Positions 10,326 through 61,675 of a stretch of 64,000 nt of DNA are shown here, piece by piece. The notes under the pieces are model-generated. The model made no database searches. It was given only the letters and a program-made list of their open reading frames with translations, and had not been told where the DNA came from. Source of the stretch: Candidatus Moraniibacteriota bacterium (GTDB lineage Bacteria; Patescibacteriota; Minisyncoccia; Moranbacterales; JAPLXC01); assembly GCA_026396275.1 (NCBI GenBank), contig JAPLXC010000002.1, positions 10,618 to 74,617 on the forward strand, read 5' to 3'. The first letter of the stretch is position 1, and each line of letters begins with the position of its first letter. The translations under genes were made by a program, and so were the position numbers.

Positions 10326-10385
10326 ACTAGTTTGTCTACTAATTATCCCGCTAAAGCGGGACCCCGCTGAGGCGGTGGCGAATCA

Positions 10386-12394: not shown

Positions 12395-12473
12395 TTGTGC
12401 TATTGCTCAAAAAAACTATAAAGGGACACGGAGAAATCCATGCCCTTTATTTTTTTATTAAACCCAAATGAAT

Positions 12474-12532
12474 TGTCATGCTGAACTCGATTCAGCATCT
12501 AATTAGATTCCGGCTCGAAGGCCGGAATGACA
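12474..12532. repeat. GTCAT-type modular double-hairpin palindromic element, full copy
   Basis: tgtcat-GCTGAActcgaTTCAGC-atctaattagat-TCCGGCtcgaagGCCGGA-atgaca. Ends 6 nt from the GIY-YIG stop codon. Confidence 0.7.
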
Positions 12533-12537
12533 AATAC

Positions 12538-12828
12538 TTATCCAAGCAATGTTTCACTTAAATCTTTCCATTTGGGATTACTTTTATTGATTAAATCAAT
12601 TTTCCATTCACGTTTCCAATTTTTAAGCTGTTTTTCTCTGGTTAAGGCGCTTCTGACATCTTCAGTCTGCTCAAAATATACTAATTTTTTCAAATTGTAT
12701 CTTTTAGTAAAACCATCAACCAGTTTATTTTTATGCTCATAAATTCTTTTAGATAAATTACCAGTAACTCCGGTATAAATTACTGTATTAATTTTATTGG
12801 TCAAAATGTAAACACAATATTGTTTCAT
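12538..12828 (-). CDS. Small stand-alone GIY-YIG nuclease (YhbQ/YazA-like URI domain)
   Basis: ATG start re-set; the track begins at an upstream TTG. MKQYCVYILTNKINTVIYTGVTGNLSKRIYEHKN is a GIY-YIG signature. About 96 aa. Confidence 0.7.
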   Translation of the reverse strand: MKQYCVYILTNKINTVIYTGVTGNLSKRIYEHKNKLVDGFTKRYNLKKLVYFEQTEDVRSALTREKQLKNWKREWKIDLINKSNPKWKDLSETLLG

Positions 12829-12831
12829 AAA

Positions 12832-12863
12832 AATTAGATCCCGGGTCAAGCCCGGGATGACAT
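12832..12863. repeat. GTCAT-type element, single-hairpin half copy, immediately 5' of the GIY-YIG start
   Basis: aattagat-CCCGGGtcaagCCCGGG-atgacat. Same scaffold as the 48139 copy. Confidence 0.55.
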
Positions 12864-12902: not shown

Positions 12903-15900
12903 TTATTCTTCCGTTACTCTCTCCACTTCCTCCAATGTCGTCTCGCCTTCCAAAACCTTAAGGATCCCGTCCTGCTGCATAGTGAGCATTCCGTTTTCAA
13001 TGGCTTTGTCGCGGATGTGGGTGGAAAGTTCGTTAGCATAAATCATTTCCTGGACGGCTTTGTCAATTACTAAGACCTCACTCACAGTGGTACGGCCTTT
13101 GTAGCCGATGCCGTTGCATTTGGCGCACCCTTTGGGCTTGTAAATGTAACTTCCGGGGGGAATTTTTACTCCCGCTTTGGGTGAAATTGACTTAATAATA
13201 TTTTTTATCTTTTCTTTTTCTTCCGCGGTGGGCTTAATTTTTTCCCGGCACTCACAAAGTTTTCGCACCAGCCGCTGCGCCATAAATCCATTGGCGGCGG
13301 TGGCTAAATCATCGGTTCTCACTCCCATATTGAGAAGGCGGGGAATAGCGCCGGGCGCGTCATTGGTATGCAAAGTTGATAAAACCAAATGTCCAGTGAG
13401 CGCCGATTGAACAGCGATGCCGGCTGTTTCCTCATCGCGGATTTCACCAATCATCATAATGTCGGGGTTTTGGCGAAGAAGCGAGCGCAGGGCCGTGGGA
13501 AAAGTGTATCCTTCTTTGTCACTAACCTGTGTTTGTAAAATCCCCGTCAGCTGGTATTCAATCGGATCCTCCACGGTGATTACTTTAACTTCGGGTTTAT
13601 TGAGCACCCGCAGCAAACTGTAAAGCGTCGTTGTTTTTCCGGATCCGGTGGGACCGGTATTGAGAAAAAATCCATTGGGCTTTTTGATTTCATGAAGGAT
13701 TTTATCCAGATTTTGTTTTCTGATCCCCAGTTTATCAACATCCAGCGCCACCGCTCCCCGATTGAGAAGGCGCATCACGACTGTTTCTCCGTAGCCGCCT
13801 AAAATTATGGAAACGCGCACGTCCACTTTTATTTCAGTTATATTTTTAAACGGCCGGTCTATGGCTATGGAAAAACGGCTGTCTTTTACTCCTTGGCGAA
13901 GTTCAGCTTTAAGCCCGGAAAGTATTTTTATCTCTCCTAAAAATGTCGGGTATTCATTGAGGGGAATCCGCCCGATGGTTTGCAAAATCCCGTCAATGCG
14001 AAGGCGCACCAAGACCTCTTTCTCTTCCGGCTCGATATGAATATCGCCGGCGGAAAGCAAAAGCGCCGCCGCGATAACGTAGCGCAGAGCGTCTTTTTGA
14101 TTAGCGCCTTTCAAAAACTCGGCGAATTTTTCGAAGGAGGATGTATTTTTAGAAACCTTTTCCAAATCTTCTTGAGGTATTTCGATCGCCCGGGAAAGCG
14201 ACTGCTCCATTAATTTTTCATAAATCTCTTCAAGGAATTCGGTTTGCCCCGTCACCCGCCATACCTCTTCCAGTGAAGTGATTCCCTCAATGGCTTTCAT
14301 GATCCCATCTTGCGCCATAGTTATCATGCCTTCTTCCAAAGCGGCTTGAGTTATTTCTCCTTCGCTGGCCATGTTTAAAATAAGTTTTTCGATTGATTCG
14401 CTCATGGTGAGAACCTCGAAAACTCCGATTCTCCCCCGATATCCCAGATTATGGCAACGGGGGCAACCTTTTGGCCGATATAATTGAAGGATATCTTTGG
14501 GGATTTCCATTTTTGACTTCGGGGAGATTATCGCCAGAATCTTTTTGATTGAGTTGGCTGTTTCCTTGGCGGGCTGATAGACCTCCCGGCAGTGAGGACA
14601 AATTTTTCGCACCAGGCGCTGGGCGATAAGAGCGCTCACCGCTGGAGCAATAAGGTTGGGTTTGACTCCCAATTCTATCAGGCGCGGAACAGCGCCAGCC
14701 GCGCTGTTGGTGTGAATCGTGGAAAGCACCAGATGCCCAGTTAGTGCGGCGTTAAGGGCAATGTCGGCCGTTTCTTCGTCGCGGATCTCGCCAACCAGAA
14801 TCACGTCCGGATCCTGTCGCACTATCGCCCGCAATCCCTTTTCGAAAGTGTACCCCCGGCTCTTGGACACCTGCGTCTGGGAGATTCCTTTTATTTCATA
14901 TTCCACCGGGTCTTCAATAGTTATTATTTTCACTCCCGGTACATTGATCCGGTTAAGAACGGCGTAAAGCGTTGTGGTTTTCCCGGATCCGGTGGGGCCG
15001 GTGTTGAGAATCATCCCATGGGGCTTTTCTGTCTGTTTTTGCACTTGCTCATAAGCTAGTCCCCGCAATCCCAGTTCCTCAACTCTCAAGAGGACATCGG
15101 CTTGATTGAGAAGACGCATCACGATGCTCTCTCCGCGGTTTCCGGGAATGATGCTGACGCGGATATTGATTAGCCCGTTTTCCAGATTGACATTGAAGTG
15201 CCCGTCCTGGGCAATATCACGGATGTTGAGTTTCATTCCTCCCATCATTTTCACCCGCGATATGATGAAGCGGTAAATATCCAGAGGCAGATATCCGACA
15301 TCCTGCAGAACTCCGTCCAGGCGATAGCGCAGACGCACTTCTTCTTCCTGCGGCTCAAAATGAATGTCGCTGGCTTTCATCTTCACCGCCCCGGCCATAA
15401 TGGTAGTGATAATCTGGGTGGTGGGAATTTCCCGGATCCTTTTTTTGAGTTCCAGCAGATCCTTGAATTCCCTTTCAAATTCTTCAAGGTCTTTTCCGCT
15501 AAGAGACAGGCGGAGAGCGTCCAGATTTTCCAAAAGCGGTGTCTCTTTATACTTATTCAGGGCTTTGCTAAGCGAAGAAAGCGAAACGACATAAAGGCGG
15601 ATGTTCCAACCATTTTCTTGCTGAAGTTTTTTGACGTAATCCAGTGTTTCACGGCTTCCGGGATTGGTCAGCGCCAGCCGGATGTTTTTCCCAGCTTTCT
15701 GAAAGACGGCCACTTGAAAACGGCGCGCCTCCTCTTCGGGAAGAGAGCGAAGCTCATCGCCGCTCAAAGGAAAGAGATTGAGATCAACGTAAAAAAGATT
15801 GTGTTTTTTGGCCAGCGCCGCGGCTTGTTCTTCTTCCGATTCCTTACGCATTCGCCGCAGGACTTGAGACGCCCTGATATCTTTTTCTTTATCAGCCGGC

Positions 15901-15950
15901 AGTGTTTTGCGGAAAACTTTAACCATAGAGTTACGACTATTGTACCGCAT
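12903..15950 (-). CDS. pilB: Tandem-fused double GspE/PilB-type secretion/pilus assembly ATPase
   Basis: 1015 aa = two complete GspE modules. Each has an N1 domain, Walker A (LNTGPTGSGKTTTLYAVL / FLNTGPTGSGKTTTLYSLL), Walker B (DPDVILVGEIRD / NPDIMMIGEIRD), a His box (LTGHLVLSTIHTN / LTGHLVLSTLHTN) and a C4 zinc knuckle (CPHC..CPRC / CECRE..CAKC). Confidence 0.85.
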   Translation of the reverse strand: MRYNSRNSMVKVFRKTLPADKEKDIRASQVLRRMRKESEEEQAAALAKKHNLFYVDLNLFPLSGDELRSLPEEEARRFQVAVFQKAGKNIRLALTNPGSRETLDYVKKLQQENGWNIRLYVVSLSSLSKALNKYKETPLLENLDALRLSLSGKDLEEFEREFKDLLELKKRIREIPTTQIITTIMAGAVKMKASDIHFEPQEEEVRLRYRLDGVLQDVGYLPLDIYRFIISRVKMMGGMKLNIRDIAQDGHFNVNLENGLINIRVSIIPGNRGESIVMRLLNQADVLLRVEELGLRGLAYEQVQKQTEKPHGMILNTGPTGSGKTTTLYAVLNRINVPGVKIITIEDPVEYEIKGISQTQVSKSRGYTFEKGLRAIVRQDPDVILVGEIRDEETADIALNAALTGHLVLSTIHTNSAAGAVPRLIELGVKPNLIAPAVSALIAQRLVRKICPHCREVYQPAKETANSIKKILAIISPKSKMEIPKDILQLYRPKGCPRCHNLGYRGRIGVFEVLTMSESIEKLILNMASEGEITQAALEEGMITMAQDGIMKAIEGITSLEEVWRVTGQTEFLEEIYEKLMEQSLSRAIEIPQEDLEKVSKNTSSFEKFAEFLKGANQKDALRYVIAAALLLSAGDIHIEPEEKEVLVRLRIDGILQTIGRIPLNEYPTFLGEIKILSGLKAELRQGVKDSRFSIAIDRPFKNITEIKVDVRVSIILGGYGETVVMRLLNRGAVALDVDKLGIRKQNLDKILHEIKKPNGFFLNTGPTGSGKTTTLYSLLRVLNKPEVKVITVEDPIEYQLTGILQTQVSDKEGYTFPTALRSLLRQNPDIMMIGEIRDEETAGIAVQSALTGHLVLSTLHTNDAPGAIPRLLNMGVRTDDLATAANGFMAQRLVRKLCECREKIKPTAEEKEKIKNIIKSISPKAGVKIPPGSYIYKPKGCAKCNGIGYKGRTTVSEVLVIDKAVQEMIYANELSTHIRDKAIENGMLTMQQDGILKVLEGETTLEEVERVTEE

Positions 15951-17838: not shown

Positions 17839-18318
17839 ATGAAATCTTATATCACCAACAGCTCCGCGGAAACCAAAAAACTGGGCGAATTACTCGCCCG
17901 CGAGCTTTACGGCGGGGAAATAATTTGTCTTTCCGGTGAACTGGGTTCCGGCAAGACCACATTTGCGCAAGGGCTTCTCAAGGGACTAAAAATAAAAGGA
18001 CCGCACACGAGCCCTACGTTTGTGATAATAAAACAATATCACGTAGCACGTAACACTAAACACATAACAAATAAGAAATCAGAGTTGTTACGTGATATGT
18101 GCTATGTGTTATGTGACATCTACCATATCGACGCCTATCGTGTTACTGCTAAAGATATCTTAAATCTTGGTTGGGGGGAAATTATAAAAGATAAAAGTAA
18201 TATAATAATCGTAGAATGGGCCGACCGGATAAGAAAAATAATTCCCAAAGGGGCCACTCGGATTAAGTTTGAGTGGGTAAGTGAAAATAAAAGAAAAATT
18301 ACCCTCATGTCATCCTGA
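17839..18318 (+). CDS. tsaE: tRNA t6A37 threonylcarbamoyladenosine biosynthesis protein TsaE, carrying an in-frame palindromic insertion
   Basis: GELGSGKTTFAQGL, SPTFVIIKQY and YHIDAYR motifs are present. Between SPTF..Y and YHxDxYR there are about 27 aa (HVARNTKHITNKKSELLRDMCYVLCDI) where E. coli YjeE has about 7. Confidence 0.75.
   Translation: MKSYITNSSAETKKLGELLARELYGGEIICLSGELGSGKTTFAQGLLKGLKIKGPHTSPTFVIIKQYHVARNTKHITNKKSELLRDMCYVLCDIYHIDAYRVTAKDILNLGWGEIIKDKSNIIIVEWADRIRKIIPKGATRIKFEWVSENKRKITLMSS
18038..18118. repeat. CAYRTAACA-family imperfect palindrome inserted in frame within tsaE
   Basis: atcacgtagcacgtaacactaaacacataacaaataag aaatcagag ttgttacgtgatatgtgctatgtgttatgtgacat. The arms pair cacgtaac/gttacgtg and cacataaca/tgttatgtg. 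Confidence 0.6.
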
Positions 18319-18489
18319 ATTCATTTCAGGATCTAATACCAACACATTAAATTACCAGTTGACTTTTTTAACCATGGCTGGAAATTTAAACCGGAATTTT
18401 TGGAAAATAAAAAAGACAGATGAATTACAAACTGCCTAAAATTTGGATTGGGGATGCTCGCGAAGATTCTCGCAAGCATTCCCGAAAAA

Positions 18490-33271: not shown

Positions 33272-33337
33272 TGTCATTCCCGCGAAAGCGGGAATCTAGA
33301 GAATTTTCTAGATTCCGGCTCGGAGGCCGGAATGACA
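33272..33337. repeat. GTCAT-type modular double-hairpin element, full copy between the two GT2 genes
   Basis: tgtcat-TCCCGCgaaaGCGGGA-atctagagaattttctagat-TCCGGCtcggagGCCGGA-atgaca. Starts 4 nt after the upstream stop codon. Confidence 0.7.
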
Positions 33338-34143: not shown

Positions 34144-35496
34144 ATGGTTTATAAACTGCTTTTATTGTTCTGCCTCTATCTTCCCTTTCAAATCGCCTTA
34201 AATCCCAGCGAAGGAATTGACCTTGCTTCAGTAAGGGTAATAATCCCAATCCTGGCTTTATTATGGATTATTTCAGGTCTCAAAAACCGGCGGATTTTTA
34301 TTCCAGCGAAAATACAGACGGTTTTAATCATATTTTTTTTGTTCATAGCTGGCCTTTCACTATTTTGGGCAGATAATCAGGATTGGGGATTCCGGAAACT
34401 TTTGTTCTTGCTTTCAATCTTTCCGGTTTATTTTGTAGTAACCAGTATTATTCAATGTCATTCCCGCGAAAGCGGGAATCCAGAAATAAATGGCGTAGAT
34501 TCCGGCTCAGGGGCCGGAATGACATATCTGAATGTCAAAATTATCAAATTTCTCGTCTGGGGCGCGGGAGTTACATCTGTAATTGGCATAATTCAATTTC
34601 TTCTGCAATTTATGATTGGGCTGGATAATACTGCTGCAATTTGGAGAAATTACGTAACACCTCTGTTTTTAGGAAAATCATTTACTCATGCTGTTTTAGA
34701 ATATCCCAGCTGGCTGGTTAATGTTTCCGGGAAAGATTTTTTAAGGGCCTTTTCGACATTTCCCGATCCGCATATGCTTTCTTTTTATTTAGGGCTTTCG
34801 CTACCTTTGGCAATAGGATTATACTATGCTTTTAAAAAAAATATTTATTTATTTTTTTCTTTAATAATTTTAATCGCGAATCTCCTTACCTTTTCCCGTG
34901 GAGGGTATATCGGCTTGGCTGCCGGCCTGATTTTTATAGTTTTATATTTTGCTGTCAATAAAAAAATATCGGCTAAAAAACTTTTAGCTTCTCTTGTGCT
35001 GACACTGATTGTTTTGGCGTCTCTGGCGCTCACGCCAATCGGGAAGCGGGCCATTACCAGCTTCAGCACTGTTGAGGGCTCAAACAAGGTAAGATTTGAA
35101 AACTGGAATCAAGCGGTTAAAGTAATCAAAAATAATCCGCTGGGAGTGGGAATCGGCAATTATTCCTATGAAATTGAGCCCAGCGCTCCCTACCGGAAGC
35201 CGATTTACGCTCATAATTTATATCTTGACATCGCGGCGGAAACAGGAATTATCAATGCCATAATCTTTATATTGCTGGTCGTTTTTTCAATTAAAGATTT
35301 TGTGAAAAAATCAAAAGATAATATTTTATATCTAGGGAGTGCGGCGGGACTTGTGATTTTTTCAATCCATTCAGTTTTTGACACCGCGCTTTATTCAGTG
35401 CAAGTTCTGCCCCTGCTTTTAGTAATAATAGCTTTATCTGCTTCGAATAATTCCGGTAACACTATACTGCGGCCGCGGCATAGTGTTACCGGATGA
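34144..35496 (+). CDS. O-antigen ligase/polymerase-like (Wzy_C family) membrane protein with an in-frame repeat-element insertion
   Basis: 450 aa, multi-TM. Residues CHSRESGNPEINGVDSGSGAGMTY are encoded entirely by a GTCAT-type element. Confidence 0.55.
   Translation: MVYKLLLLFCLYLPFQIALNPSEGIDLASVRVIIPILALLWIISGLKNRRIFIPAKIQTVLIIFFLFIAGLSLFWADNQDWGFRKLLFLLSIFPVYFVVTSIIQCHSRESGNPEINGVDSGSGAGMTYLNVKIIKFLVWGAGVTSVIGIIQFLLQFMIGLDNTAAIWRNYVTPLFLGKSFTHAVLEYPSWLVNVSGKDFLRAFSTFPDPHMLSFYLGLSLPLAIGLYYAFKKNIYLFFSLIILIANLLTFSRGGYIGLAAGLIFIVLYFAVNKKISAKKLLASLVLTLIVLASLALTPIGKRAITSFSTVEGSNKVRFENWNQAVKVIKNNPLGVGIGNYSYEIEPSAPYRKPIYAHNLYLDIAAETGIINAIIFILLVVFSIKDFVKKSKDNILYLGSAAGLVIFSIHSVFDTALYSVQVLPLLLVIIALSASNNSGNTILRPRHSVTG
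34456..34525. repeat. GTCAT-type double-hairpin element inserted in frame within a CDS
   Basis: tgtcat-TCCCGCgaaaGCGGGA-atccagaaataaatggcgtagat-TCCGGCtcagggGCCGGA-atgaca. The element begins exactly at a codon boundary of ORF 34144..35496. Confidence 0.65.
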
Positions 35497-48138: not shown

Positions 48139-48203
48139 TGTCATCCCGGACTTGATCCGGGATCTAATCTAATTAGATGCTGAATCAAGTTCAGCGTGAC
48201 ATT
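48139..48203. repeat. GTCAT-type modular double-hairpin element upstream of pnp
   Basis: tgtcat-CCCGGActtgaTCCGGG-atctaatctaattagat-GCTGAAtcaagTTCAGC-gtgacat. Confidence 0.7.
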
Positions 48204-49493: not shown

Positions 49494-49760
49494 TTATTTT
49501 AATTCTAGTTTTTTAATTAACTTCTTATATGATTTTTCATTCGTCTTTTTTAAATACTCCATTAATTTTCTTCTTTTGGCCACCATTTTCAAAAGTCCCC
49601 GGCGGGAATGGAAATCCTTCTTATTTTTCTTGAGATGTTCAGTCAGGCGCTTGATTCTTGCGGTAAAAAGCGCAATTTGGTATTCCGGCGAGCCGGAATC
49701 TTTCTCGTGCCTTTTTACCTCTTTAGTCACTCTTTCTTTTTGCTTATGCGTTAACGCCAT
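49494..49760 (-). CDS. rpsO: Ribosomal protein S15
   Basis: 88 aa. [48 protein letters not shown]. Confidence 0.85.
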
Positions 49761-60982: not shown

Positions 60983-61101
60983 GATCATGGAACATATAGC
61001 ATGAAACATGTAACATTAACAGGGAAAGATTTTACAAAACAGGAATTGGTAGATTAGTAAAGAAATTCATATTAAGAGCGATGAAAAGTTTAAGTAAATC
61101 G

Positions 61102-61164
61102 GGCAATTAGCTCAGTTGGTTACCCGCCCGAACGTACCGTCGTTCGGTACGGGCGGGGAGTGCT
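61102..61164 (+). tRNA. tRNA 5' portion (acceptor + D-arm) interrupted by a 35-36-nt perfect hairpin; the matching 3' portion appears to lie at about 61612-61665
   Basis: GGGCAAT-TA-GCTC-AGTTGGTTA, then CCCGCCCGAACGTACCGTCGTTCGGTACGGGCGGGG, then GAGTGC. The 3' segment ...GAGTGCCCCGATGTAACATCGGGGAGGTCGCTGGTTCGATTCCAGCATTGCCCA has an acceptor 3' strand ATTGCCC perfectly complementary to GGGCAAT. Coordinates +/-1. Confidence 0.4.
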
Positions 61165-61170
61165 ATATTT

Positions 61171-61431
61171 ATGTATACCGTATACGTGTTACAAGACAAA
61201 GAAGGAAAATTTTACAAAGGTGTTACAAATAATATTAAGCGCCGACTCTATGAACATAAACAGGGCAAAACAAAAACTACAAGAAAGATGGACGAGTTAA
61301 AAATTGTTTACACAGAAAAATACAAAAACTTTAAAGAAGTGAGAAGAAGAGAAGTTTATTTTAAAACTGCAGCAGGAAGAAGATTTTTAAAGAAAATATT
61401 AAATAAAAGGGCGACTAGCTCAGCTGGTTAG
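61171..61431 (+). CDS. Small GIY-YIG nuclease (second copy), embedded in the tRNA locus with its stop codon inside tRNA-Val
   Basis: 86 aa. MYTVYVLQDKEGKFYKGVTNNIKRRLYEHKQG is a GIY-YIG signature. Track coordinates used; my hand count puts the ATG at 61172. Confidence 0.6.
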   Translation: MYTVYVLQDKEGKFYKGVTNNIKRRLYEHKQGKTKTTRKMDELKIVYTEKYKNFKEVRRREVYFKTAAGRRFLKKILNKRATSSAG

Positions 61432-61483
61432 AGCGTCACATTGACATTGTGAAGGTCACAGGTTCAAGTCCTGTGTCGCCCAC
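61410..61483 (+). tRNA. tRNA-Val (anticodon GAC)
   Basis: GGGCGAC-TA-GCTC-AGCTGGTTA-GAGC-G-TCACA-TTGACAT-TGTGA-AGGTC-ACAGG-TTCAAGT-CCTGT-GTCGCCC-A, 74 nt, full cloverleaf. Coordinates +/-1. Confidence 0.8.
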
Positions 61484-61587
61484 TTAGTTCAGTTGGTTAC
61501 CCGCCCGAACGTACCGTCGTTCGGTACGGGCGGGGAGCGCTTCGTTGACATCGAAGAGGTCTGCAGTTCGAGTCTGCACAAGCCCAC
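61484..61587 (+). tRNA. tRNA-Val(GAC)-like pseudo/variant copy lacking a matching 5' acceptor strand and carrying the same hairpin in its D-loop
   Basis: TA-GTTC-AGTTGGTTA-[36-nt hairpin 61501-61536]-GAGC-G-CTTCG-TTGACAT-CGAAG-AGGTC-TGCAG-TTCGAGT-CTGCA-CAAGCCC-A. No GGGCTTG 5' strand. Flanked by the direct repeat GCCCACTT (61479-61486 and 61583-61590). Confidence 0.4.
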
Positions 61588-61675
61588 TTGTTTATATATA
61601 GGCAATTTTAGAGTGCCCCGATGTAACATCGGGGAGGTCGCTGGTTCGATTCCAGCATTGCCCACTCAAAATAAA

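What the first reader, a model, noticed from the sequence alone, without database searches (positions are those of the whole stretch)
12474..12863. Modular GTCAT double-hairpin palindromic elements bracket a small GIY-YIG nuclease gene; five copies in the window
Five copies (12474-12532, 12832-12863, 33272-33337, 34456-34525, 48139-48203) share one scaffold: TGTCAT - stem-loop - ATCTA..TAGAT - stem-loop - ATGACA. The stems differ between copies but stay perfectly paired (GCTGAA/TTCAGC, TCCGGC/GCCGGA, CCCGGA/TCCGGG, TCCCGC/GCGGGA). That is compensatory covariation, which argues selection on structure rather than sequence. A full copy sits 6 nt after the GIY-YIG stop and a half copy 4 nt before its start. 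By analogy with REP elements and their RAYT/TnpA nucleases, the GIY-YIG protein could be the enzyme that recognises or mobilises these hairpins. Alternatively the elements may be structured RNA modules.
Basis: seen in the sequence. Interest (0 to 1): 0.85.

Follow-up and report, generated by a model that had tools for sequence, protein, structure and literature searches.

The report
Ssn nuclease gene with hairpin repeats
The repeated hairpins and the small GIY-YIG gene are real and belong together, but they are a Candidatus Moranbacteria example of the Ssn nuclease and hairpin-repeat system published in 2025, so this is a sound rediscovery rather than a new kind of element.

Summary
The window has ten oriented hairpin units at six sites, one more site than reported. 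Each unit is TGTC, an 8-bp stem starting AT, a 4-6 nt loop, then C. About 0.2 such units are expected by chance. 79 of 80 stem positions pair and five of eight pairs show compensatory changes.

A 96-aa single-domain GIY-YIG gene (12538-12828, minus strand) has one unit 5' and a dimer 3', heads pointing outward. In 80 homologous loci from many phyla, 51 have GTC-headed hairpins on both sides of the gene.

This matches two published descriptions. The units fit the "CGTC-tagged REPs" of Di Nocera 2013. The gene and its repeats fit the SsnA/NTS (SRM) system of Chenal 2025. In that work a 94-aa GIY-YIG nuclease binds such hairpins only as single-stranded DNA and cuts just 5' of them. Two window units are 27/28 identical to the Neisseria NTS consensus.

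Gene-less dimers look like the two ends of an ssnA cassette joined together. One dimer sits in frame inside an O-antigen-ligase gene; another fills a junction that is tight in related genomes. Mobilisation by the nuclease remains unproven.

Verdict: new member of a known kind, modest interest.

The parts
12538..12828 (-). ssnA-like gene: a 96-aa single-domain GIY-YIG nuclease (stop codon at 12538-12540)
   Evidence: ORF. Pfam GIY-YIG E = 9e-16 over residues 3-77. Y7, Y18 and E65 are invariant in alignments A1 and A4. They have the same spacing as the catalytic Y6, Y17 and E64 of N. meningitidis SsnA. The protein is 54-86% identical to homologues in many phyla.
12834..12862 (-). 5'-flanking hairpin unit of the gene. 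In gene orientation: TGTCAT-CCCGGG-CTTGA-CCCGGG-ATCTAA, then TTTTT, then ATG. The head points away from the gene.
   Evidence: Folds at -9.3 kcal/mol, z = -4.9. An identical unit lies at the orthologous locus L161. It is one substitution away from the published SRM search pattern. The simple scan also flags it as terminator-like because of the T run that follows.
12474..12532 (.). 3'-flanking dimer with heads outward: unit 12474-12502 (+, stem GCTGAA) and unit 12503-12532 (-, stem TCCGGC). It ends 5 nt from the gene's stop codon.
   Evidence: Folds at -16.4 kcal/mol, z = -6.2. The same two stems occur in the same order at the orthologous locus L161.
18308..18336 (+). Single unit TGTCAT-CCTGAA-TTCAT-TTCAGG-ATCTAA, overlapping the stop of ORF 17839..18318.
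   Evidence: ATCCTGAA is the commonest stem next to ssnA genes in other phyla.
33272..33337 (.). Gene-less dimer: unit 33272-33299 (+, stem TCCCGC, loop GAAA) and unit 33308-33337 (-, stem TCCGGC), with a third small hairpin between them. It is inserted in the junction between two glycosyltransferase genes.
   Evidence: The + unit is 27/28 identical to the Neisseria NTS consensus and matches the published SRM pattern. The syntenic junction in related metagenome loci is tight and carries no unit.
34456..34524 (.). Gene-less dimer in frame inside the Wzy_C (O-antigen ligase family) gene 34144..35496. It encodes CHSRESGNPEINGVDSGSGAGMT.
   Evidence: The + unit is 27/28 identical to the NTS consensus and matches the SRM pattern. 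The insert lies in a variable loop. Six of 18 close homologues have no insert there; most others carry longer, variable inserts, several clearly hairpin-derived peptides.
48139..48201 (.). Gene-less dimer: unit 48139-48167 (+, stem CCCGGA) and unit 48173-48201 (-, stem GCTGAA, one T.G mismatch). It lies between the pnp-like gene and the next gene.
   Evidence: Its left 27 nt are identical to the 5' flank of the ssnA gene of Moranbacteria locus L001. Its right arm matches that gene's 3' flank at 28 of 29 nt.

Best explanation
This is an Ssn/SRM pair. It consists of an SsnA-type single-domain GIY-YIG endonuclease gene and its cognate oriented hairpin repeats. These repeats have been called NTS-like 'Ssn-related motifs', CGTC/TGTC-tagged REPs, Neisseria dRS3 and Rickettsia RPE-4/6.

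Likely mechanism:
- When DNA is single-stranded (replication, repair, incoming transforming DNA), each unit folds into an 8-bp hairpin.
- The nuclease binds the base of the hairpin together with the C just 3' of it.
- It then hydrolyses the strand a few nucleotides 5' of the GTC head. It cuts only the strand on which the unit reads GTC-hairpin-C.
- In the heads-outward dimers and in the unit-gene-unit cassette, the two units lie on opposite strands. The predicted cuts therefore fall at the two outer edges, one per strand.

Likely consequences, by analogy with N. meningitidis: cleavage of ssDNA that carries the repeats, which modulates recombination of incoming DNA.

Likely origin of the gene-less dimers: copies of the cassette ends that have spread through the genome, including in frame into genes.

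What is shown here: the architecture, the enrichment next to the gene, conservation at an orthologous locus, and insertion polymorphism.
What is shown elsewhere: ssDNA-specific binding and cleavage by four homologues.
What is inferred: the activity of this protein, its role in Moranbacteria, and any part it plays in copying the repeats.
For: 1. Unit anatomy matches the published families. Di Nocera 2013 describes a CGTC or TGTC tag, an 8-9 bp stem starting A-T/T-A, a 4-5 nt loop, a short tail, mostly tags-outward dimers, and intragenic dimers encoding 20-30 aa. Chenal 2025 gives the NTS as CGTCATTCCCGCGMAVGCGGGAATCYRG. Window units 33272-33299 and 34456-34483 match it at 27/28 positions and match the SRM pattern (2 hits against 0.11 in shuffles).

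2. The determinants found by mutagenesis of the Neisseria substrate are the three nt 5' of the palindrome (for cutting) and the C 3' of it (for binding). Both are invariant in all 10 window units. The C is present in 263 of 268 canonical units from 80 loci, although my detector did not require it.

3. The protein is 96 aa with a single GIY-YIG domain. Y7, Y18 and E65 are collinear with SsnA Y6, Y17 and E64. It is 66% identical to the L032 homologue, whose 5' flank carries a canonical NTS-type hairpin, with a degenerate copy 3'.

4. Association was tested on 80 homologous loci from Patescibacteria, Nitrospirota, Bacteroidota, Proteobacteria and other phyla. A GTC-headed hairpin lies within 150 bp upstream in 60 loci, downstream in 62 and on both sides in 51. 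154 of 375 units lie in about 3% of the sequence. The nearest upstream unit points away from the gene in 47/60 loci and the nearest downstream unit in 48/62.

5. Unit density is 0.33/kb in ssnA loci, 0.041/kb in 80 control loci and 0.046/kb in shuffles.

6. Cassette boundaries: two copies on one contig (L023, L051) are similar over 353 bp, ending exactly at the unit heads.

7. The orthologous pilB-ssnA-ruvB locus L161 keeps the same three units, although the protein is only 82% identical.
Against: - No biochemical test of this protein was possible.
- I could not obtain the N. meningitidis SsnA sequence or the CDD model cd10448, so the published membership criterion could not be applied directly.
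- Only 2 of the 10 units match the published SRM pattern. The units next to the gene are 1 to more than 3 substitutions away from it.
- Five stem classes coexist with one ssnA gene in the window. For the Neisseria enzyme, changing the stem sequence while keeping the pairing abolished activity. One enzyme may therefore not serve all units.
- GIY-YIG enzymes are hydrolytic nucleases with no known strand-transfer activity (established knowledge). How the units are copied is unexplained.
- No target-site duplication is visible at any insertion.
Confidence: 0.85

Rival explanations
1. The units act mainly at the RNA level. They would be transcribed hairpins that stabilise or terminate mRNAs, as proposed for classical REPs, and the adjacency to the nuclease gene would be secondary.
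For: Most units lie just after stop codons inside operons. The folds are very stable. The unit 5' of ssnA is followed by a T run, and the simple scan flags it as terminator-like for the upstream pilB-like gene.
Against: - The other units have no T run.
- A separate terminator-like hairpin lies next to the 12474 dimer, at 12424-12445.
- Dimers present both orientations to any transcript.
- One dimer is translated in frame.
- There is no Rfam match.
- The asymmetric conserved GTC head and C tail are the DNA-recognition determinants of SsnA, which does not bind RNA.
- Covariation cannot distinguish DNA hairpins from RNA hairpins.
- An RNA side-effect is not excluded.
Confidence: 0.1
2. The units are REP or MITE elements mobilised by a different enzyme elsewhere in the genome, such as a RAYT or IS200/IS605-type Y1 transposase or an IS110-type recombinase. 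The GIY-YIG gene would merely be a frequent landing site.
For: REPs and RAYTs show the same overall logic. dRS3 repeats in Neisseria are known integration targets of other elements (my own knowledge, not tested here). The window is only 64 kb of the genome.
Against: - The tag is TGTC, not GTAG.
- CGTC REPs showed no transposase association in the 2013 survey.
- The gene flanked by units, heads outward, in 51 of 80 loci across phyla is the GIY-YIG gene itself.
- Similarity between cassette copies ends exactly at the unit heads.
- The two ends carry units on opposite strands, unlike IS200/IS605 ends.
- I did not scan every ORF of the window for transposases.
Confidence: 0.04
3. The hairpins are chance palindromes or ordinary terminators. 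The GIY-YIG gene is a free-standing homing endonuclease unrelated to them.
For: Small GIY-YIG genes are common in Patescibacteria. NCBIfam gives only a weak, sub-threshold hit to the group I intron endonuclease family (22.5 bits against a cut-off of 56).
Against: - Ten units are found against 0.2 expected.
- The scaffold is shared across 80 loci and many phyla.
- The protein has no DNA-binding extension of the kind homing endonucleases carry: it is 96 aa with one domain.
Confidence: 0.01

Closest known systems
SsnA / NTS (SRM) system, Ssn family of site-specific ssDNA endonucleases (Chenal et al., Nat Commun 2025, PMC11893778)
   Same: - A roughly 95-aa single-domain GIY-YIG protein.
- The gene is flanked on both sides by oriented hairpin repeats.
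- The repeat is YGTC, an AT-initiated 8-bp stem, a short loop, then C.
- Two window units are 27/28 identical to the Neisseria NTS consensus.
- Many gene-less copies occur elsewhere in the genome.
   Different: - The host is Candidatus Moranbacteria (Patescibacteria), a group the paper's text does not mention.
- Most units here, and in my 80 loci, have A/T-richer distal stems (YCTGAA, GCTGAA) that the published SRM pattern does not capture.
- Five stem classes occur beside one gene.
- One dimer lies in frame within a gene, whereas NTS are intragenic in only 2% of cases in N. meningitidis.
- Activity is untested.
CGTC-tagged REPs (Di Nocera et al. 2013, PMC3733652), including Neisseria dRS3 and Rickettsia RPE-4/RPE-6
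   Same: - The tag (TGTC variant), 8-bp stem starting AT, and short tail.
- Tags-outward ('HH') dimers, with heterodimers of different stems.
- In-frame intragenic dimers encoding 20-30 aa.
   Different: - Loops of 6 nt occur in three units; 4-5 nt were described.
- The tail is CTA in nine units and CCA in one.
- That survey found no associated enzyme.
REP/REPIN elements and RAYT transposases
   Same: - A single resident nuclease gene flanked by inverted copies of a short hairpin repeat.
- The repeat is also scattered as inverted dimers.
- The gene appears vertically inherited at one locus (window and L161).
   Different: - The enzyme fold is different: GIY-YIG hydrolase rather than HUH Y1 transposase.
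- The tag is different: TGTC rather than GTAG.
- No covalent-intermediate chemistry is known for GIY-YIG enzymes.
IS200/IS605 family
   Same: - Recognition of subterminal hairpins in single-stranded DNA.
- Cleavage at a short distance from the hairpin.
   Different: - Here the end hairpins are inverted, on opposite strands, rather than on one strand.
- There is no TnpA.
- No defined target tetranucleotide was seen.

Membership tests
Ssn nuclease family (cd10448; Chenal 2025) | Single-domain GIY-YIG protein of about 94 aa (under 150 aa) | tested here: met
   96 aa. Pfam GIY-YIG covers residues 3-77 and there is no other domain.
Ssn nuclease family (cd10448; Chenal 2025) | Catalytic Tyr, Tyr and Glu equivalent to N. 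meningitidis SsnA Y6, Y17 and E64 | tested here: met
   Y7, Y18 and E65 are invariant in A1 and A4, with identical spacing (11 and 47 residues). The equivalence rests on position, not on an alignment to the Neisseria protein.
Ssn nuclease family (cd10448; Chenal 2025) | BLASTP E < 1e-10 with at least 75% coverage to N. meningitidis SsnA (CAX49033.1), or cd10448 as the top CDD hit | not testable with these tools
   Neither the sequence nor CDD was available. A profile search aimed at proteobacterial members listed no named Neisseria protein among its 120 rows. Indirect evidence: 66% identity to the L032 homologue, whose 5' flank has a canonical NTS-type hairpin.
Ssn nuclease family (cd10448; Chenal 2025) | Gene flanked by a cognate hairpin repeat within 500 bp on both the 5' and 3' sides | tested here: met
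   One unit lies 5 nt from the ATG and a dimer lies 5 nt from the stop codon, with the outermost heads pointing away from the gene.
Ssn nuclease family (cd10448; Chenal 2025) | Flanking repeats match the published SRM pattern HGTCWYN(0-2)YYVSBRHN(0-5)WNVSBRGN(0-2)RNCYNB | tested here: not met
   The 5' unit is one substitution away (last position). The 3' units are 3 or more away. Two other units in the window match exactly. The pattern was hand-built from 29 genomes, so it is a search aid more than a definition.
Ssn nuclease family (cd10448; Chenal 2025) | Binds and cuts the repeat only as ssDNA, on one strand, a few nt 5' of the hairpin | not testable with these tools
   This needs purified protein and oligonucleotides.
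CGTC-tagged REP superfamily (Di Nocera 2013) | Unpaired CGTC (or TGTC) tag at one end | tested here: met
   TGTC in 10 of 10 units.
CGTC-tagged REP superfamily (Di Nocera 2013) | Stem of 8-9 bp with complementary A and T in the first and second positions | tested here: met
   The stem is 8 bp in 10/10 units. It starts AT in 9/10 and AC (T.G mismatch) in one.
CGTC-tagged REP superfamily (Di Nocera 2013) | Loop of 4-5 nt and a short tail, mostly CCA | tested here: inconclusive
   Loops are 4 nt (2 units), 5 nt (5 units) and 6 nt (3 units). The tail is CTA in 9 units and CCA in 1. The first C is invariant.
CGTC-tagged REP superfamily (Di Nocera 2013) | Mostly dimers with tags outside ('HH') | tested here: met
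   Four of the six sites are tags-outward dimers. In the 80 loci there are 50 such adjacent pairs, against 23 tags-inward and 12 tandem.
REP / RAYT (REPIN) system | GTAG tag and an associated Y1 (HUH) RAYT gene flanked by the repeats | tested here: not met
   The tag is TGTC and the flanked gene is a GIY-YIG gene.
IS200/IS605 | TnpA Y1 transposase, with subterminal hairpins at both ends on the same strand | tested here: not met
   The end units are inverted and the only gene in the cassette is a GIY-YIG gene.
Intrinsic terminators | G+C-rich hairpin followed directly by a T run | tested here: not met
   Nine of the 10 units are followed by CTAA, CTAG, CTAC or CCAG with no T run. Only the unit 5' of ssnA is flagged as terminator-like.

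The most novel reading that the evidence does not exclude
In Patescibacteria the heads-outward dimers may be REPIN-like non-autonomous copies of the ssnA cassette ends, spread by breaks that the GIY-YIG nuclease makes. Recognition would depend on the GTC head, the 3' C and the proximal stem pairs, while the distal stem is free to vary. That would make Ssn a hydrolytic nuclease that drives a repeat family, including in-frame invasion of coding genes. Its specificity code would be looser than the one measured for the Neisseria enzyme.
Probability: 0.3. Interest if true: 0.6.

Novelty: new member of a known kind. Interest (0 to 1): 0.3.

Why it matters
The finding adds a Candidatus Moranbacteria example to a nuclease-repeat system that was characterised only in 2025.

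Points that could be useful to specialists:
- The commonest repeat variants next to ssnA genes in many phyla (YCTGAA and GCTGAA stems) fall outside the published search pattern. The published counts of repeats may therefore be underestimates.
- Several stem classes coexisting with one gene gives a direct test of how these enzymes read their hairpins. That matters for their proposed use as programmable ssDNA cutters.
- The gene-less dimers, the filled gene junction and the in-frame insert give concrete sequence cases for the unresolved question of whether the cassette is or was mobile.

None of this changes the basic picture.

Tried and rejected
- Exact look-up of the window protein and of its 100%-identical database entry found no contig on record.
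- Rfam at gathering thresholds found only tRNA-Val in the window.
- The PDB sequence search found no solved relative; the best E-value was 0.15.
- NCBIfam gave only a sub-threshold group I intron endonuclease hit.
- The supplementary files of the Ssn paper are not held, so the N. meningitidis SsnA sequence could not be retrieved. A profile search aimed at proteobacterial members listed no named Neisseria protein.
- I looked for target-site duplications at the four dimers and saw none.
- I asked whether adjacency to the pilB-like gene is general. It is conserved in one orthologous locus (L161), but only 3 of 80 loci have a PilB homologue within 10 kb.
- I considered a cloverleaf or tRNA-like reading of the dimers (outer stem plus two or three hairpins). 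Rfam gives no support, and the outer stem simply follows from the inverted heads.
- I considered hairpins at 10346-10361 and 49682-49699 as degenerate units. Both lack the GTC head. The second encodes DSGSPEYQ within an ORF that I read, from my own knowledge, as ribosomal protein S15. Neither was counted.
- No near-identical strain was found in the collections: the best GT2 homologue is 65% identical and the best Wzy_C homologue 73% by pairwise alignment. Exact empty-site comparison at the nucleotide level was therefore not possible.

Full report
**Observation.**
The five reported copies are in the sequence. I scanned for AT-initiated perfect hairpins with a GTC head. This found nine tagged units, against 0.2 expected in shuffles. 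A tenth unit has one T.G mismatch.

Every unit reads TGTC, then an 8-bp stem, a 4-6 nt loop, the return stem, and C-T/C-A-N.

Four sites are dimers with the TGTC heads outward.

On the ten aligned units:
- 79 of 80 stem cells pair.
- Five of eight pairs carry changes on both sides.
- The covariation score is 0.656 against 0.203 in shuffles (0 of 500 reach it).
- Pairing falls to 15-49% when partners are slid by 1-3 columns.

As ssDNA the dimers fold with z-scores of -5.2 to -7.1.

**The gene.**
The ORF at 12538-12828 (minus strand) encodes 96 aa with one GIY-YIG domain (E = 9e-16). In gene orientation the locus reads:

TGTCAT-CCCGGG-CTTGA-CCCGGG-ATCTAA TTTTT ATG ... TAA GTATT [TGTC unit, stem TCCGGC][inverted unit, stem GCTGAA...ATGACA].

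The database twin of this protein is annotated as Candidatus Moranbacteria.

**What is already known.**
Di Nocera et al. 2013 defined 'CGTC-tagged REPs'. Their features are:
- a CGTC tag, often TGTC;
- an 8-9 bp stem beginning A-T/T-A;
- a 4-5 nt loop and a short tail;
- mostly tags-outward dimers, often of two different stems;
- intragenic dimers encoding 20-30 aa.

That family includes Neisseria dRS3 and Rickettsia RPE-4/6. No associated enzyme was found at the time.

Chenal et al. 2025 identified the partner enzyme.
- SsnA of N. meningitidis is a 94-aa single-domain GIY-YIG protein (cd10448).
- It binds the oriented repeat NTS (CGTCATTCCCGCGMAVGCGGGAATCYRG) only as ssDNA, and only on one strand.
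- It cuts a few nucleotides 5' of the repeat.
- The three bases 5' of the palindrome matter most for cutting. The C just 3' of it matters most for binding.
- ssnA genes are flanked by such motifs on both sides in 42% of homologues.
- Three further homologues, including one from Wolbachia, cut their own motifs.
- The authors note that NTS-ssnA-NTS looks like an insertion sequence, but they did not show mobility.

**Tests made here.**
Window units 33272-33299 and 34456-34483 match the NTS consensus at 27 of 28 positions. They also match the published SRM pattern (2 hits against 0.11 in shuffles).

The other eight units share the scaffold but differ from the pattern by at least one substitution (1-3 for those that could be scored within four), mostly in the distal stem.

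The GTC head and the +1 C are invariant in all ten units.

A scan of one genome per species returned 80 homologous loci, 54-79% identical, from Patescibacteria, Nitrospirota, Bacteroidota, several classes of Proteobacteria, Melainabacteria-type lineages and others. In these loci:
- A GTC-headed hairpin lies within 150 bp upstream in 60, downstream in 62, and on both sides in 51.
- 154 of 375 units fall in roughly 3% of the sequence.
- The nearest unit points away from the gene in 47/60 loci upstream and 48/62 downstream.

Unit density is 0.33/kb in these loci. It is 0.041/kb in 80 control loci and 0.046/kb in shuffles.

Among 268 canonical units, the +1 C is present in 263, although the detector did not ask for it. 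Stem positions 1, 2, 4 and 6 and the loop (CTTGW) are also conserved. Positions 3, 5, 7 and 8 vary with compensation.

The window protein keeps Y7, Y18 and E65, with the same spacing as the mutated catalytic residues of SsnA.

**Are the dimers derived from the cassette?**
The gene-less dimer at 48139-48201 has a left arm identical over 27 nt to the 5' flank of the ssnA gene in Moranbacteria locus L001. Its right arm matches that gene's 3' flank at 28 of 29 nt.

Two ssnA copies on one Patescibacteria contig are similar over 353 bp, bounded exactly by the unit heads.

In many homologues the ORF reads through the right-hand hairpin (...LLDAETSSA). In L001 it then stops at the TGA inside ATGACA.

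**Insertion evidence.**
The 34456 dimer lies in frame in a Wzy_C gene. It sits in a variable loop. Six of 18 close homologues have no insert there. Most others carry longer, variable inserts, several of them clearly hairpin-derived peptides such as VIPSERGESR.

The 33272 dimer fills a junction between two glycosyltransferase genes. Without the dimer that junction would be 9 nt long. In syntenic metagenome loci the junction is tight and unit-free.

No target-site duplication is visible at any dimer.

**Residency.**
Locus L161, from another Moranbacteria genome, has the same pilB-like, ssnA, ruvB order. It carries the same three flanking units, with changes only in loops and spacers. The protein is only 82% identical. 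At this site the cassette is therefore inherited vertically, much like a RAYT.

Other close homologues sit in unrelated contexts.

**Interpretation.**
The window holds a member of the Ssn/SRM system.

Mobilisation remains a hypothesis. GIY-YIG enzymes are hydrolases (established knowledge), the two end units lie on opposite strands, and I see no duplication at insertion sites.

The RNA-module alternative has no positive support, apart from one unit followed by a T run.

**What is slightly new.**
- The host group.
- Stems that the published pattern misses.
- Five stem classes next to one gene. For the Neisseria enzyme, changing the stem sequence while keeping pairing abolished activity, so this coexistence is unexplained.

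Noticed in passing
window 61099-61664: A second small GIY-YIG ORF lies at 61171-61431 (86 aa, Pfam E = 1e-12). It is only 35% identical to the ssnA-like protein, has a different C-terminus, and has no TGTC units nearby. This ORF and an intact tRNA-Val(GAC) (61409-61483) sit between two 66-nt direct repeats (92% identical; 61099-61164 and 61476-61541). Each repeat consists of a tRNA 5' part (acceptor and D arm) followed by an exact 35-nt G+C-rich palindrome, CCCGCCCGAACGTACCGTCGTTCGGTACGGGCGGG. Two tRNA-like remnants follow: 61528-61586 (29.2 bits, with a Val GAC anticodon loop again) and 61600-61664 (23.2 bits, below the threshold). Removing the palindrome from the second copy restores a normal D arm. 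It looks like tRNA genes with a palindromic insert in the D loop, rearranged around a nuclease gene. Unresolved.
   Followed up: partly
Alignment A2 (homologues of window 34144-35496); P0143 in particular: The same loop of this O-antigen-ligase family protein carries different hairpin-derived peptides in different Patescibacteria: single units, dimers and longer runs. P0143 has further inserts of this kind at two other positions. The loop appears to be a recurrent landing site or a tolerated site.
   Followed up: partly
Alignment A1; loci L001 and L163: Many ssnA homologues are annotated 6-7 aa longer at the C-terminus (for example LLDAETSSA or LLDSESSSE). The ORF runs through the right-hand hairpin. 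In L001 it then uses the TGA inside the ATGACA head as its stop codon. Some annotated N-terminal extensions are translations of the left-hand hairpin.
   Followed up: partly
window 12903-15950 (-); L161 2925-5954: The gene next to ssnA encodes a 1015-aa protein with two T2SSE (PilB-type secretion ATPase) modules in one chain. The pilB-like, ssnA, ruvB order is conserved in a second Moranbacteria genome. That genome also has a reverse-transcriptase (RVT_1) gene just upstream.
   Followed up: no
window 12424-12445 (-): A terminator-like hairpin separate from the units (GGGCATGG...CCGTGTCC followed by a T-rich tail) lies between the convergent genes, next to the 12474 dimer. A similar sequence lies at the equivalent position in L161.
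   Followed up: no
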